DNA of 64,000 bases. Source: an uncultured Candidatus Saccharibacteria bacterium (GTDB lineage Bacteria; Patescibacteriota; Minisyncoccia; Phycocordibacterales; JAKFXT01). The stretch covers positions 173,797 to 237,796 of the forward strand of contig CAYLPX010000001.1 of the NCBI GenBank assembly GCA_964385825.1, in the 5' to 3' direction. This document shows positions 44,912 to 46,794 of this stretch, one piece after another. The translations under genes were made by a program, and so were the position numbers. Numbering within the stretch: the first letter of the stretch is position 1; each line of letters begins with the position of its first letter. Below the pieces are notes generated by a model. It was not told the DNA's origin and ran no database searches. It saw only the letters and a list, made by a program, of their open reading frames with translations.

Positions 44912-44940
44912 AAAAAAAAGCCGCGCCAAACTTGGCGCGG
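44912..44940 (-). terminator. Intrinsic terminator for GC-island gene D
   Basis: aaaaaaaag-ccgcgcc-aaactt-ggcgcgg on plus, i.e. hairpin plus U-run on the minus strand. Confidence 0.65.
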
Positions 44941-44972
44941 ACAGAAGTGATACGGACAGAAACAGACACGCT

Positions 44973-45380
44973 TCAGACCAATGCCGGCATTTGATCGACG
45001 CATGCAGCAGTCTGCGTCAAATCCAATGCTCCGAGAAGCTGCGCCTGCATTTCGCGGAAGAACGCGGACGGCTCCCGCCCATCCTGCGTCAGCATGGCTT
45101 CAGCCAAGGCGTCCGCCACCACCTCGAGGGCAATCGGCGCGATAGTCCCAGCCTTGTAATTGACCACAACAAGGCCGTTCGCCGCGAAAGCGGCAATGCC
45201 AGTAGGAAGTGCAACCTCGTAGAGGTTACTCCTCAAGGTGATATGGATATTCGAAGTACGGGCCATCTTGCCCTTCAAAACGGCTTCCCAGTACCGCCCA
45301 AAGAGAGGCGACCCCTGGATTTCCTGCAACTTCCCTGCAAACTGTCGCGACAGTTCGGCACGATCCGACTCAGTGGCCAT
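44973..45380 (-). CDS. GC-island gene D: hypothetical 135-aa protein (SD GGAGGG)
   Basis: True start MATESDRAE at 45378-45380 preceded by gagggagggcct. About 58-60% GC. The ORF-track N-terminal extension and the opposite-strand ORF 44991..45737 are rejected. Confidence 0.55.
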   Translation of the reverse strand: MATESDRAELSRQFAGKLQEIQGSPLFGRYWEAVLKGKMARTSNIHITLRSNLYEVALPTGIAAFAANGLVVVNYKAGTIAPIALEVVADALAEAMLTQDGREPSAFFREMQAQLLGALDLTQTAACVDQMPALV

Positions 45381-45454
45381 AGGCCCTCCCTCAAAAAAGA
45401 AGAACGAAAAATACTTAAAAATCATACTACAAAAATTGAATTTGCGCAACCACC

Positions 45455-45497
45455 CAGTGGGGAAAAGTTGAACCCGCGCCGAGGAAGCGGCGCGGGT
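45455..45497 (-). terminator. Intrinsic terminator for GC-island gene E
   Basis: acccgcgcc-gaggaagcg-gcgcgggt hairpin followed by a U-rich tract on the minus strand. Confidence 0.55.
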
Positions 45498-45515
45498 CAG
45501 TTCAAAGAACAAGTC

Positions 45516-45938
45516 CTACATGCTGGCAACAACCCTCTCACGAAGGTGTCGCTCGGGTGCATACTGTTGCAGCGGGAGCACCCTGAACTCCCGACTCGGA
45601 AGAGGTGCGCGCGCGACACACAGTGCATAGAGCGCGCCAACCAGTTCCTGAGGCGTAGGCGGCTTCTCCATTTCCGCCAGAAGTTCGGCGACCTGGAAGA
45701 GGCTCTTCTCTTCCAGAGAACCCTGCCCCTCTGTTGAGCAGAGCACGAACCCTGCCTTGCCCACACCCAGATATTTCGAAGGAGCGAGTTCAAGCGGCCA
45801 TGCGCCGGCATGGATCCGGCAATCCCCAAGGTTCGGAGCTGCAGCCTTCAGAGCATTGAACTCCTTCTTCCGCTCGTTCAAAAATGCAATGAGCGCCCGA
45901 CGGAACATCCGTGCCTTAATATCTTTTTCGTCCTGCAT
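45516..45938 (-). CDS. GC-island gene E: hypothetical 140-aa protein (SD GGAGGG)
   Basis: Start MQDEKDIKAR at 45936-45938 preceded by gatggagggtgt. GC-rich. No recognised family. Confidence 0.55.
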   Translation of the reverse strand: MQDEKDIKARMFRRALIAFLNERKKEFNALKAAAPNLGDCRIHAGAWPLELAPSKYLGVGKAGFVLCSTEGQGSLEEKSLFQVAELLAEMEKPPTPQELVGALYALCVARAPLPSREFRVLPLQQYAPERHLRERVVASM

Positions 45939-46024
45939 ACACCCTCCATCTAAAAAAACAAAACGGCCCACCTCTGGGTCGATAGACTCACATTAACATA
46001 AAATAATTAAACTGACAATACCAT

Positions 46025-46051
46025 AAAAAATGGCCGCGCGTACGCGCGGCC
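46025..46051 (-). terminator. Intrinsic terminator for GC-island gene F (perfect palindrome ggccgcgcgtacgcgcggcc + U-run)
   Basis: Read directly. Confidence 0.65.
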
Positions 46052-46065
46052 AACTGGGCTGAGTC

Positions 46066-46725
46066 CTACCAGAGCGGCGGTACCCCCGACTTCATCGGCG
46101 GCTTTTCCCGCCAATCAGTGAGGAGGTATTCGCCCTCGTCATGCCCCAGCTTCCCGGCCAGAATCAGCTCCGAAACAACCGCGTCGAGCGTGCTGGCCGG
46201 AAGGAATTTCACCTCCTCACCGCGGAACGCGCCGATCGTTTGCGGAAAGGCATAGGTGAAGAAGCAAAAGCAGCCTTCCACCATGGCACCCGCTTCACGC
46301 AATGTCCGAATAGCCGGAAGCGAAGTTGTTGCCAAGGTGACCACGTCTTCAACGAGAAGGACGTTCTTCCCCCGCAGATCCATCCCCTCGATGAGCTTGG
46401 CCGTGCCATGACCCTTTTCGGCTGCACGCATGTAGGCGAAGGGTAGCCGGTATCGCTGTGCAACCATAGCGGCCGGCGGGATCCCGCCTGTTGCCATACC
46501 CACCAGCACCACCCCTTCCCGACACTCGTTCTGCACAACATCGATCAAGGGGGAAAGTGCCAGTTCCCGCTCCAAGGGAGACGCCCACAGCTTACGGCCA
46601 TCCACATAGAAGGGTGATTGGATCCCCGACTTGAAGGTTCTCCACTTCGTTGTGTCGAAAAACGGATCAACCGTTCCCACACACCCCGCATCAATCAGAG
46701 CGTCTACCACTCCGTTATTACTCAT
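46066..46725 (-). CDS. pyrE: GC-island gene F: orotate phosphoribosyltransferase-like type I PRTase
   Basis: FKSGIQSPFYVDGRKL, GMATGGIPPAAMVA, and VLLVEDVVTLATTSLPAIRTLREAGAMVEG (PRPP-binding loop). Start MSNNGVVDAL at 46723-46725 with SD GGAGGA. Confidence 0.7.
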   Translation of the reverse strand: MSNNGVVDALIDAGCVGTVDPFFDTTKWRTFKSGIQSPFYVDGRKLWASPLERELALSPLIDVVQNECREGVVLVGMATGGIPPAAMVAQRYRLPFAYMRAAEKGHGTAKLIEGMDLRGKNVLLVEDVVTLATTSLPAIRTLREAGAMVEGCFCFFTYAFPQTIGAFRGEEVKFLPASTLDAVVSELILAGKLGHDEGEYLLTDWREKPPMKSGVPPLW

Positions 46726-46794
46726 CTCAAAAATCCTCCAAGAATATACCTCGGCGAGGTACCCTAACGGCATATATTGCTCTAAAAGAATCCC

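What the first reader, a model, noticed from the sequence alone, without database searches (positions are those of the whole stretch)
44912..46780. 1.9-kb high-GC island: pyrE-like phosphoribosyltransferase plus two unknown proteins, each with private SD and terminator
Three consecutive minus-strand genes (F PRTase 46066-46725, E 45516-45938, D 44973-45380) lie between dnaX and dus. All three are GC-rich, each starts 4-8 nt after GGAGG(G/A), and each is followed by its own perfect GC hairpin plus U-run (46025-46051, 45455-45497, 44912-44940). Reduced Patescibacteria-type genomes normally lack de novo pyrimidine synthesis, so a lone orotate-PRTase homolog is unexpected as a metabolic gene. Type I PRTase domains also occur as effector or partner proteins in phage-defence contexts; this is inference. 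D and E have no recognisable domains. The ORF track shows overlapping ORFs on both strands here, a hallmark of high GC, and the coding strand was chosen from the SD/start/terminator logic.
Basis: partly seen in the sequence, partly recalled or inferred. Interest (0 to 1): 0.7.

Follow-up and report, generated by a model that had tools for sequence, protein, structure and literature searches.

The report
GC-rich accessory gene islet with pyrE-like gene
Three separately transcribed, GC-rich genes (a divergent orotate-phosphoribosyltransferase-like enzyme and two fast-evolving small proteins of unknown function) sit in a slot between dus and dnaX that often holds variable cargo in Paceibacteria, and nothing marks them as a phage-defence system.

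Summary
Window 44851-46750 is the longest GC-rich stretch (55-61% against 44%). It holds three minus-strand genes, each with a GGAGG-type ribosome-binding site and its own strong GC hairpin terminator.

F is a type I phosphoribosyltransferase closest to orotate PRTases (33% identical to the S. pyogenes enzyme). It keeps the catalytic KGHG loop and the acidic ED pair, but scores below the curated pyrE cut-offs.

E is a real gene. A sister-species contig (L092) carries the same islet between dus and dnaX, with an E ortholog (31% identity, E=3e-13) and a paralog. D is an orphan with only a weak link to that family.

The islet diverged in step with its flanks, so it was inherited from the common ancestor. 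The most likely origin is an old transfer from a very GC-rich donor.

In 58 related genomes the dus-dnaX gap ranges from 12 bp to 6.8 kb. Its cargo includes IMPDH, PurA and two other pyrE-like genes, and none of the 48 cargo proteins scanned matches a defence model.

The private SD and terminator are not special to this islet. All ten GC-rich small genes in the window share this pattern, while core genes lack SD motifs. The defence reading is not supported, and interest is modest.

The parts
46795..47757 (-). dus (tRNA-dihydrouridine synthase), the upstream core flank
   Evidence: Pfam Dus is precomputed for this gene. It is 57-69% identical to Dus in 80 Paceibacteria/Parcubacteria loci. GC3 is 0.39.
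46747..46762 (-). 16-nt palindrome GTACCTCGCCGAGGTA in the dus-F spacer, just downstream of a -10-like box; a candidate operator or 5' leader element of F
   Evidence: It is identical in the sister contig L092, while the rest of the spacer differs. It occurs only once in the window. Its folding energy is not significant.
46734..46739 (-). SD of F (GGAGGA), 8 nt upstream of the ATG
   Evidence: Read from the sequence.
46066..46725 (-). F: divergent orotate-phosphoribosyltransferase-like type I PRTase, 219 aa
   Evidence: Family scores: Pfam PF00156 40.2 bits (cut-off 26.3). TIGR00336 pyrE 91.5 bits (cut-off 106.8) and NF001729 98.4 bits (cut-off 245), both below cut-off. Best solved relative is OPRTase 2aee, E=3e-26 and 33% identity over 178 aa. 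The KGHG loop and the ED pair are kept, and the phosphate loop reads TLATTS. The L092 ortholog is 68% identical, with dN 0.23 and dS 1.7.
46025..46052 (-). Intrinsic terminator of F
   Evidence: 9-bp G/C stem followed by T6; -19.9 kcal/mol, z -4.5.
45942..45947 (-). SD of E (GGAGGG)
   Evidence: Read from the sequence.
45516..45938 (-). E: small protein (140 aa) of a new, fast-evolving lineage-specific family
   Evidence: BLASTP to Y in L092 gives E=3e-13 at 31% identity, and the shuffle z-score is 18. Its paralog X matches Y at E=2e-6. It has no credible Pfam, NCBIfam, PADLOC or PHROG match. Only the identical sequence turns up among 5.8e9 proteins. A profile of E, Y and X finds no PDB sequence at E <= 10.
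45461..45496 (-). Terminator hairpin of E, with a weak U-tract
   Evidence: -22.5 kcal/mol, z -5.1. Hairpin 45473-45496 is 24/24 identical to the hairpin after Y in L092, although the two coding sequences no longer align as DNA.
45384..45390 (-). SD of D (GGGAGGG)
   Evidence: Read from the sequence.
44973..45380 (-). D: orphan small protein (135 aa), possibly a very distant member of the E/X/Y family
   Evidence: phmmer against 1.84e9 representatives finds only the identical sequence plus spurious repeat proteins. The D-X Smith-Waterman z-score is 4.2-5.3, but BLASTP is not significant, and an unrelated pair reached z 4.8. The AF2 single-sequence model has pLDDT 42.
44912..44940 (-). Intrinsic terminator of D
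   Evidence: 8-bp stem followed by T8; -16.0 kcal/mol, z -4.0. Its stem CCGCGCC/GGCGCGG is the same as in the E terminator.
43792..44835 (-). dnaX, the downstream core flank, with a -10-like box (TATACT) 7 nt before the ATG
   Evidence: Pfam DNA_pol3 domains are precomputed. It is 94% identical to DnaX in L092. The upstream sequence is shown.

Best explanation
The region is an accessory-gene islet of three independent transcription units. It occupies the dus|dnaX slot of a conserved Paceibacteria backbone (relA-topA-dprA-serS-ftsQ-dus-dnaX).

Origin. It was most likely acquired by horizontal transfer from a much more GC-rich donor before this organism and its sister species (contig L092) split. 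It has since been inherited vertically and has partly drifted towards host composition.

F. F is a divergent orotate-phosphoribosyltransferase-type enzyme. It most likely transfers ribose-5-phosphate from PRPP onto orotate, or a closely related base, to make a nucleoside monophosphate. That makes it an accessory nucleotide-metabolism gene, like the IMPDH, PurA and other pyrE-like genes that occupy the same slot in relatives.

E and D. They are small cytoplasmic proteins. E belongs to a lineage-specific family that changes very fast and gains and loses paralogous copies; D's membership of that family is only tentative. Their function is unknown and is probably not tightly coupled to F, because each gene has its own promoter-like region, SD and terminator.

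SD and terminators. The strong SD and terminators are the general packaging of acquired genes in this genome. Its core genes are largely SD-less and look leaderless. The terminators plausibly insulate essential neighbours such as dnaX from read-through.

Shown: anatomy, composition, homology, synteny and co-divergence. Inferred: enzyme activity, donor, insulation role, and anything about the function of E and D.
For: F as an OPRTase-type enzyme:
- Pfam PF00156 is above its cut-off. The best NCBIfam models are all pyrE models.
- The 17 solved relatives found are nearly all annotated as OPRTases.
- Alignment with 2aee, 3dez, 3m3h, 4ohc and 2yzk shows the SG..SP.Y.D.R motif, ATGGIP, the Y.R..KGHG....EG flexible loop and the VLLVED motif.
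- dN/dS against the sister ortholog is about 0.13.

Orthologous islet in a sister species:
- L092 reads dus-F'-X-Y-dnaX, with islet GC of 55-61% against 40-45% in its flanks.

Co-divergence with the flanks:
- Identity at 4-fold sites is 0.44 for F, 0.43 for dnaX and 0.49 for dus, against 0.26-0.28 expected at random.

Variable slot with metabolic cargo:
- The gap is 12-67 bp in 15 of 58 relatives and 276-6788 bp in the other 43, on a conserved backbone.
- Cargo includes class II aaRS-like x4, IMPDH x2, PurA, PRTase x2, RimK and NUDIX. The two PRTases are pyrE_Therm-like.
- None of the 48 cargo proteins scanned hits PADLOC.

E as a real, fast-evolving gene:
- E-Y E=3e-13 and X-Y E=2e-6.
- dN is 0.84 for E/Y, against 0.04 for dnaX, 0.12 for dus and 0.23 for F.

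Class-wide packaging:
- GGAG or better in 9 of 10 GC-rich genes against 2 of 37 core genes.
- A perfect GC hairpin plus T-rich tail in 9 of 10 against 2 of 37. Fisher p = 4e-7 for each comparison.
- Core genes have TAnnnT 4-10 nt before the ATG in 17 of 37 cases, against 10% background.
Against: - F is below both curated pyrE cut-offs.
- Its phosphate-binding loop reads TLATTS, not TGGS or TAGT. Solved OPRTase 4ohc also lacks TGG, which softens this point.
- The L092 copy reads QD instead of ED in the PRPP motif, whereas the L001 copy reads ED. This could mean relaxed constraint, or a low-coverage sequencing error.
- No pyrF, pyrB or pyrC signature was found in the window, so the pathway context is unknown.
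- No donor lineage was identified. The closest relatives of F among 5.8e9 proteins are itself, the sister ortholog, and two weak hits (36-38% identity over about half of F) that score as ordinary pyrE.
- GC4 of 0.64-0.69 after this much divergence needs a donor with GC4 near 0.9 (my calculation). That is possible but extreme.
- There are no mobility genes, no adjacent tRNA and no convincing flanking repeats.
Confidence: 0.55

Rival explanations
1. The triad is a conflict or defence system. F would be a PRTase effector or toxin that perturbs nucleotide pools, and E and D would be partner or immunity proteins that evolve fast under an arms race.
For: PRTase-domain effectors do exist in ShosTA and in type III-A3 retrons (PMC11961720, PMC12746101). 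E, Y and X evolve very fast and show gain and loss of paralogs. The islet sits in a variable slot.
Against: - F, E and D have no PADLOC hits at E <= 1.
- None of the 48 cargo proteins scanned from the same slot hits PADLOC.
- There is no reverse transcriptase, no retron-like RNA and no adjacent DprA-like antitoxin. The dprA gene about 5 kb away belongs to the conserved backbone.
- F is a plain OPRTase-sized protein with the catalytic loop intact and no extra domain.
- Each gene has its own terminator, which is unlike toxin-antitoxin or defence operons.
- The two other pyrE-like genes in this slot have no E- or D-like neighbours.
Confidence: 0.07
2. F is a phosphoribosyltransferase that has shifted to a substrate other than orotate, for example salvage of another base or a cofactor precursor taken from a host cell.
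For: - Both curated pyrE models score below their cut-offs.
- The unusual TLATTS loop is conserved in F and F'.
- F and F' form an isolated clade, with no close relatives among 5.8e9 proteins.
- No pyrF signature was found in the window.
Against: All the best family and structure matches are OPRTases, along the whole length of F. This includes the N-terminal base-binding motif and the C-terminal helix. Loop variants without TGG also occur in a solved OPRTase, 4ohc.
Confidence: 0.2
3. D is not a gene, and the islet really holds two genes plus a GC-rich spacer in which a long ORF arises by chance.
For: D has no homolog in 1.84e9 representative proteins. Its link to X is at noise level. GC-rich DNA gives long ORFs on both strands here. 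L092 has no gene between Y and dnaX.
Against: D has a strong SD at the right distance, its own -10-like box and its own strong terminator, in the same arrangement as the nine other GC-rich genes. Its codon-position GC pattern matches that of F. Independent gene callers call it in several assemblies.
Confidence: 0.12
4. The two sister islets were acquired independently and recently from a GC-rich mobile gene pool that targets the dus|dnaX slot, rather than being inherited.
For: Both islets keep high GC. Gene order differs: F-E-D against F'-X-Y. One terminator is 24/24 identical between the two.
Against: 4-fold-site divergence of F matches that of both flanks. The dus-F spacer is alignable between the two genomes. 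There is no integrase, no att-like repeat and no shared cassette ends. No relatives were found in viral contigs.
Confidence: 0.1

Closest known systems
Orotate phosphoribosyltransferase (PyrE), Gram-positive type; solved examples S. pyogenes 2aee, S. mutans 3dez, B. anthracis 3m3h/4rv4
   Same: - Same length class and the same type I PRTase domain.
- Conserved SG..SP.Y.D.R, ATGGIP, Y.R..KGHG....EG flexible loop, VLLVED motif and FTY region.
- A C-terminal helix ending with a Trp-containing motif.
- 33% identity over 178 aa.
   Different: - Below the curated pyrE HMM cut-offs (91.5 against 106.8; 98.4 against 245).
- The phosphate loop is TLATTS instead of STGGS.
- F and F' form an isolated two-member clade.
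- It sits alone, not in a pyr operon, and has foreign GC.
pyrE_Therm-type OPRTase-like genes in the same dus|dnaX slot of other Paceibacteria (L071:9376-10062, L082:2251-2922)
   Same: The same intergenic slot, the same orientation and the same enzyme superfamily.
   Different: - A different OPRTase subfamily (TIGR01367-like).
- Weak similarity to F: 29% identity over 120 aa for L071 (E=3e-6); for L082 BLASTP is not significant and phmmer is marginal (E=0.017).
- Native GC for their genomes.
- No E- or D-like neighbours.
ShosTA and type III-A3 retron PRTase effectors (anti-phage systems)
   Same: They contain a PRTase-family domain (PMC11961720, PMC12746101).
   Different: F does not match any PADLOC model. 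It has no pyrophosphatase or other extra domain, no adjacent DprA-like ShosA, no reverse transcriptase or ncRNA, and no operon structure.
Phage 'morons' and small genomic islets: independently transcribed acquired genes with their own promoter and terminator and atypical GC
   Same: The promoter-SD-ORF-terminator packaging, the atypical composition, and insertion between conserved genes.
   Different: It lies in a chromosome backbone, not in a prophage. There are no phage genes nearby and no relatives in viral contigs. It has been stably inherited across a species split.

Membership tests
Orotate phosphoribosyltransferase (PyrE) | Type I PRTase domain (Pfam PF00156) above the gathering score | tested here: met
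   40.2 bits against a cut-off of 26.3.
Orotate phosphoribosyltransferase (PyrE) | Score above the curated cut-off of a pyrE equivalog model | tested here: not met
   TIGR00336 91.5 bits (cut-off 106.8); NF001729 98.4 (cut-off 245); TIGR01367 43.7 (cut-off 150.25). pyrE models are nevertheless the best-scoring models.
Orotate phosphoribosyltransferase (PyrE) | Flexible catalytic loop with the conserved Lys and His (K-[DG]-H-G) | tested here: met
   F reads YMRAAEKGHGTAKLIEG. This aligns with YIRSKPKDHGAGNQIEG (2aee), YVRSKAKGHGKGNQIEG (3m3h) and YVRPERKGHGTLSQVEG (2yzk). The role of these residues is taken from established OPRTase structural work (my own knowledge).
Orotate phosphoribosyltransferase (PyrE) | PRPP motif: four hydrophobic residues, an acidic pair, then a T/S-G-rich 5'-phosphate loop | tested here: inconclusive
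   VLLVED is present. The loop is TLATTS rather than STGGS or TAGT. It fails my recollection of PROSITE PS00103 at one position. Solved OPRTase 4ohc has TDSRS at this place. The L092 copy has QD instead of ED.
Orotate phosphoribosyltransferase (PyrE) | Pathway context: pyrF and other pyr genes in the same genome | tested here: inconclusive
   No PyrF, ATCase or DHOase signature was found in the window or in the few kb beyond it. The rest of the genome could not be read.
Orotate phosphoribosyltransferase (PyrE) | Catalysis of orotate + PRPP -> OMP + PPi | not testable with these tools
   Needs an enzyme assay or complementation.
PRTase-based anti-phage systems (ShosTA; retron type III-A3) | Effector matches the system's protein model | tested here: not met
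   F, E and D have no PADLOC hit at E <= 1.
PRTase-based anti-phage systems (ShosTA; retron type III-A3) | Cognate partner encoded alongside (DprA-like ShosA, or reverse transcriptase plus ncRNA) | tested here: not met
   E and D have no credible Pfam or NCBIfam domain. There is no RT ORF. No credible Rfam match was found. The nearby dprA belongs to the conserved backbone.
PRTase-based anti-phage systems (ShosTA; retron type III-A3) | Operon organisation and defence-island neighbourhood | tested here: not met
   Each gene ends with its own terminator. The flanks are housekeeping genes. The cargo of this slot in relatives has no PADLOC hits in 48 proteins.
Horizontally acquired genomic islet | Composition atypical for the host | tested here: met
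   GC 0.58 against 0.44; GC3 0.62-0.68 against 0.39.
Horizontally acquired genomic islet | Absent from the same locus in most relatives | tested here: met
   No F, E or D homolog by tblastn in 80 related loci. dus and dnaX are directly adjacent in 15 of 58. Only the sister contig L092 shares the islet.
Horizontally acquired genomic islet | Mobility signatures (integrase, tRNA target, flanking direct repeats) | tested here: not met
   No such genes are present. The nearest tRNA is at 42817-42890. Only short repeats at chance level were found.
Horizontally acquired genomic islet | Identifiable donor lineage | tested here: not met
   The only significant hits to F among 5.8e9 proteins are itself, the sister ortholog and two weak hits (36-38% identity over about half of F) that score as ordinary pyrE. 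E found only itself there, and D found only itself in both that search and the 1.84e9-representative search.

The most novel reading that the evidence does not exclude
The islet may be the most visible part of a separate accessory regulon. At least ten GC-rich genes with a leader, an SD and a terminator are scattered through a genome whose core genes are SD-less and look leaderless. They could form a distinct translation class, for example one expressed only under certain ribosome or host-contact states. Within it, F plus the fast-evolving E/X/Y family (with D as a tentative member) could be a nucleotide-pool module used in conflict with a host cell or a phage.
Probability: 0.1. Interest if true: 0.7.

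Novelty: new member of a known kind. Interest (0 to 1): 0.33.

Why it matters
The finding is modest. It adds a divergent pyrE-type gene and a new, very fast-evolving small-protein family to the accessory gene pool of Paceibacteria. It also shows that the dus|dnaX junction is a recurrent insertion slot that often carries nucleotide-metabolism genes. That fits organisms that depend on scavenged nucleotides.

The wider pattern may interest people who annotate CPR genomes or study their translation initiation. In this window, acquired GC-rich genes carry strong SD motifs and strong terminators, while the core genes lack SD motifs and look leaderless. Loss of the anti-SD sequence has been reported for many Parcubacteria (PMC9297842).

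Tried and rejected
- Word-indexed homolog searches for F, E and D. They returned the query itself for all three, plus for F the sister ortholog and two weak hits.
- Full phmmer of D against 1.84e9 representatives. It returned the query itself plus tandem-repeat Ig-like proteins whose scores are sums over repeats. These were rejected as spurious.
- AF2 single-sequence models of D and E. pLDDT was 42-44, too low to use, so no fold search was run. The only observation is a similar helix / 4-5 strands / helices pattern in both models.
- Profile of D, E, X and Y against PDB sequences. Calmodulin matched at E=0.017. This was rejected because it is not significant, the EF-hand ligand positions are not conserved, and the match disappears when D is left out.
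- hhalign of the E/Y pair against the D/X pair: probability 4%, no support.
- PHROGs, phage GenBank records and IMG/VR scans. They returned only ordinary host-type pyrE genes, or nothing.
- Rfam search of the window and of the islet. Only tRNAs and sub-threshold sRNA noise were found.
- Strain-level SNPs for dN/dS. All ten same-organism contigs are essentially identical to the window.
- Shared k-mers at cassette ends, as a test for a mobile-element family. None were found.
- The idea that an unusual force maintains the islet's GC. It was dropped after the 4-fold-site analysis showed that roughly half-complete amelioration from a very GC-rich donor is enough to explain it.
- A resemblance of the G..G(F/Y)L(L/I)V..(D/T).G motif to Roadblock/LC7 domains. 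This was recalled from memory only, has no tool support, and is not claimed.
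Full report
OBSERVATION. The described features are present at the stated coordinates. GC is 0.556-0.588 in the 500-bp windows spanning 45001-46500, in a window that averages 0.442. With 300-bp windows, 44851-46750 is the longest GC-rich run; the others are at most 600 bp. There are three minus-strand ORFs: F (46066-46725, 219 aa), E (45516-45938, 140 aa) and D (44973-45380, 135 aa). 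They lie between dus (46795-47757) and dnaX (43792-44835). Third-position GC is 0.68, 0.62 and 0.67 for F, E and D, against 0.39 for both flanks. Each ATG is preceded by GGAGGA, GGAGGG or GGGAGGG at 3-8 nt. Each stop is followed by a perfect G/C hairpin of -19.9, -22.5 and -16.0 kcal/mol, with z-scores of -4 to -5. The E hairpin has a poor U-tract. Only about eight comparably strong hairpins occur in roughly 60 kb, so three within 1.9 kb is not chance.

WHAT F IS. F matches the type I phosphoribosyltransferase domain at 40.2 bits against a cut-off of 26.3. All of its best NCBIfam models are pyrE models, but below their cut-offs: TIGR00336 at 91.5 against 106.8, and NF001729 at 98.4 against 245. 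The 17 solved relatives found are nearly all annotated as orotate PRTases. The best is S. pyogenes 2aee, at E=3e-26 and 33% identity over 178 residues. The alignments show several conserved features: the N-terminal SG..SP.Y.D.R motif, ATGGIP, the flexible catalytic loop (YMRAAEKGHGTAKLIEG) and the VLLVED acidic motif. The phosphate-binding loop reads TLATTS instead of STGGS. The solved OPRTase 4ohc also lacks TGG at this place. F has no PADLOC match and only a weak generic PHROG match.

THE SISTER ISLET. A metagenome scan with F and its one 68%-identical relative (P0002, on the partial contig L001) found contig L092. L092 reads dus-F'-X-Y-dnaX. Its DnaX is 94% and its Dus 81% identical to the window proteins. 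Its islet is again 55-61% GC between flanks of 40-45%. Y is the ortholog of E, with BLASTP E=3e-13 at 31% identity and a shuffle z-score of 18. X is a paralog of Y, with E=2e-6. E is therefore a real protein-coding gene. It belongs to a small family that changes very fast: dN is 0.84, against 0.23 for F, 0.12 for dus and 0.04 for dnaX. The link between D and X is weak. The Smith-Waterman z-score is 4.2-5.3, BLASTP is not significant, and an unrelated pair reached z 4.8. Gene order also differs: F-E-D in the window and F'-X-Y in L092. The hairpin after E is 24/24 identical to the hairpin after Y, and the D terminator has the same stem. Together these suggest birth and death of cassettes at the hairpins, but this is inference.

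HOW THE ISLET WAS INHERITED. At 4-fold degenerate sites, F is as diverged between the two genomes as the flanking genes are. Identity is 0.44 for F, 0.43 for dnaX and 0.49 for dus, against 0.26-0.28 expected at random. The dus-F spacer also still aligns, and it includes a fully conserved 16-nt palindrome. The islet was therefore inherited from the common ancestor. Its GC4 of 0.64-0.69 is compatible with transfer from a very GC-rich donor followed by roughly half-complete amelioration. That estimate is my own calculation.

THE SLOT. Eighty loci from related Paceibacteria/Parcubacteria were fetched with Dus as the query. The backbone relA-topA-dprA-serS-ftsQ-dus-dnaX is conserved in most of them. 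Among the 58 loci where both genes could be placed, the dus-dnaX gap is 12-67 bp in 15 and 276-6788 bp in 43. The GC of the inserts is sometimes above and sometimes below that of the host. None of the loci has an F, E or D homolog by tblastn. A more sensitive search found pyrE_Therm-like PRTase genes in this same gap in two genomes, L071 and L082, at native GC. Other cargo includes class II aaRS-like proteins (x4), IMPDH (x2), adenylosuccinate synthetase, RimK, NUDIX and pilin-like proteins. None of the 48 cargo proteins scanned matches a PADLOC defence model. The slot therefore collects accessory genes, and nucleotide-metabolism genes recur among them.

THE SD AND TERMINATOR LOGIC IS A CLASS PROPERTY. 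Gene-by-gene composition separates the window into two classes. Core genes have GC3 of 0.30-0.41. About ten small genes have GC3 of 0.56-0.74: 559-948, 37881-38285, D, E, F, 50394-50747, 51756-52085, 54447-54809, 56494-56841 and 58721-59149. Nine of the ten have GGAG or better upstream, against 2 of 37 core genes. Nine of ten are followed by a perfect GC hairpin with a T-rich tail, against 2 of 37. Fisher p is 4e-7 for each comparison. Core genes instead often have a TAnnnT box 4-10 nt before the ATG (17 of 37, against 10% background). That suggests leaderless transcripts. The GC-rich genes have similar -10-like boxes (TAGTAT) placed further upstream. They share no terminal sequences. Several sit in spacers that are short in most relatives. 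One of them is named CheY-like by JGI, and one has a weak DUF6884 hit. A published survey found the anti-SD motif missing in about half of Parcubacteria (PMC9297842). The 16S rRNA gene of this organism is not in the window.

INTERPRETATION. The best-supported reading is an old, vertically inherited, horizontally acquired islet of three independent transcription units. F most likely works as an orotate-type PRTase in nucleotide supply. The evidence is its catalytic loop, its full-length OPRTase similarity, purifying selection, and the nucleotide-metabolism genes found in the same slot in relatives. The premise that such a gene is anomalous in this group is weak, because a Parcubacterium with a near-complete de novo pyrimidine pathway has been described (PMC5220378). 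E and D remain without a function. They have no PDB, Pfam or viral relatives, and single-sequence structure models were unusable. The terminators plausibly insulate dnaX and other essential neighbours from read-through, which is inference.

THE DEFENCE READING. Known PRTase defence systems are ShosTA and type III-A3 retrons. They need partners that are absent here, and no defence model matches. The operon-less layout and the ordinary OPRTase architecture also argue against this reading. I give it about 7%.

CAVEATS.
- F fails the curated pyrE cut-offs.
- The L092 copy of F reads QD instead of ED in the PRPP motif, at about 3x coverage. The L001 copy reads ED.
- No pyrF signature was seen in the 64 kb, and the rest of the genome could not be read.
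- No donor lineage was found.
- D may not be a gene.
- All same-organism contigs are clonal, so no population-level test of selection was possible.

VERDICT. The islet is a new member of a known kind: an accessory islet with a pyrE-type xenolog plus a new orphan family. Interest is modest. The genome-wide two-class expression pattern is the most interesting by-product.

Noticed in passing
window 559-948(+), 37881-38285(-), 50394-50747(-), 51756-52085(+), 54447-54809(-), 56494-56841(+), 58721-59149(+): Seven more small GC-rich genes (GC3 0.56-0.74) lie between core genes. Nearly all have a GGAG/GGAGG SD and a strong GC hairpin terminator. Most have no known family. One is called CheY-like by JGI, and one has a weak DUF6884 hit. 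Several sit in spacers that are short in most relatives.
   Followed up: partly
window, 37 core genes (e.g. dnaX 43792-44835, topA 52206-54404, relA 54897-56435): 29 of 37 core genes have no SD-like motif. 17 of 37 have a TAnnnT box ending 4-10 nt before the ATG, against 10% background. This suggests widespread leaderless transcripts in this Paceibacteria genome.
   Followed up: partly
window 45473-45496 and L092 2450-2473: The hairpin after E is 24/24 identical, loop included (GCTTCCTC), to the hairpin after its ortholog Y. The two coding sequences no longer align as DNA. That is more conservation than a plain terminator needs.
   Followed up: partly
window 46747-46762 and L092 about 547-562: A 16-nt palindrome, GTACCTCGCCGAGGTA, is conserved just downstream of a -10-like box in the dus-F spacer. 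It occurs once in the window. It could be an operator or a leader element for F.
   Followed up: partly
L012-L091 (80 related loci): The backbone relA-topA-dprA-serS-ftsQ-dus-dnaX is conserved across many Paceibacteria/Parcubacteria. The dus-dnaX junction is a variable slot of 12 bp to 6.8 kb. Its cargo includes IMPDH, PurA, pyrE-like, class II aaRS-like, RimK and NUDIX genes.
   Followed up: yes
window 11655-25343(-): There is a giant ORF of 4562 aa. It is followed by a 727-aa ORF (9462-11645) that has Laminin_G_3 hits in the precomputed Pfam data for the same-organism contig L095. The 2064-aa gene cut at the end of L095 (Peptidase_S74 hit) appears to be its C-terminal part. It is probably a surface or adhesion protein.
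   Followed up: no
window 58188-58430(+) and tRNA-Leu 58421-58503: A small GIY-YIG-domain ORF (80 aa, GC 0.35) ends inside the start of the tRNA-Leu gene.
   Followed up: no
window 61297-62199(-): This gene is unusually AT-rich (GC 0.33, GC3 0.22). It is a compositional outlier in the opposite direction to the GC-rich class.
   Followed up: no
L092 584-1243 versus L001 48-707: Two copies of the sister-species F ortholog, from different samples, differ at 5 residues. Two of these are in the PRPP motif (VEDVV against VQDVA). The cause could be a real variant or a low-coverage error.
   Followed up: no
window 45948-45992(-): A second, degenerate hairpin with a long T-run lies between the F terminator and the SD of E. 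It may be a remnant terminator of a lost cassette, or an attenuator in the E leader. Its folding energy is not significant.
   Followed up: partly
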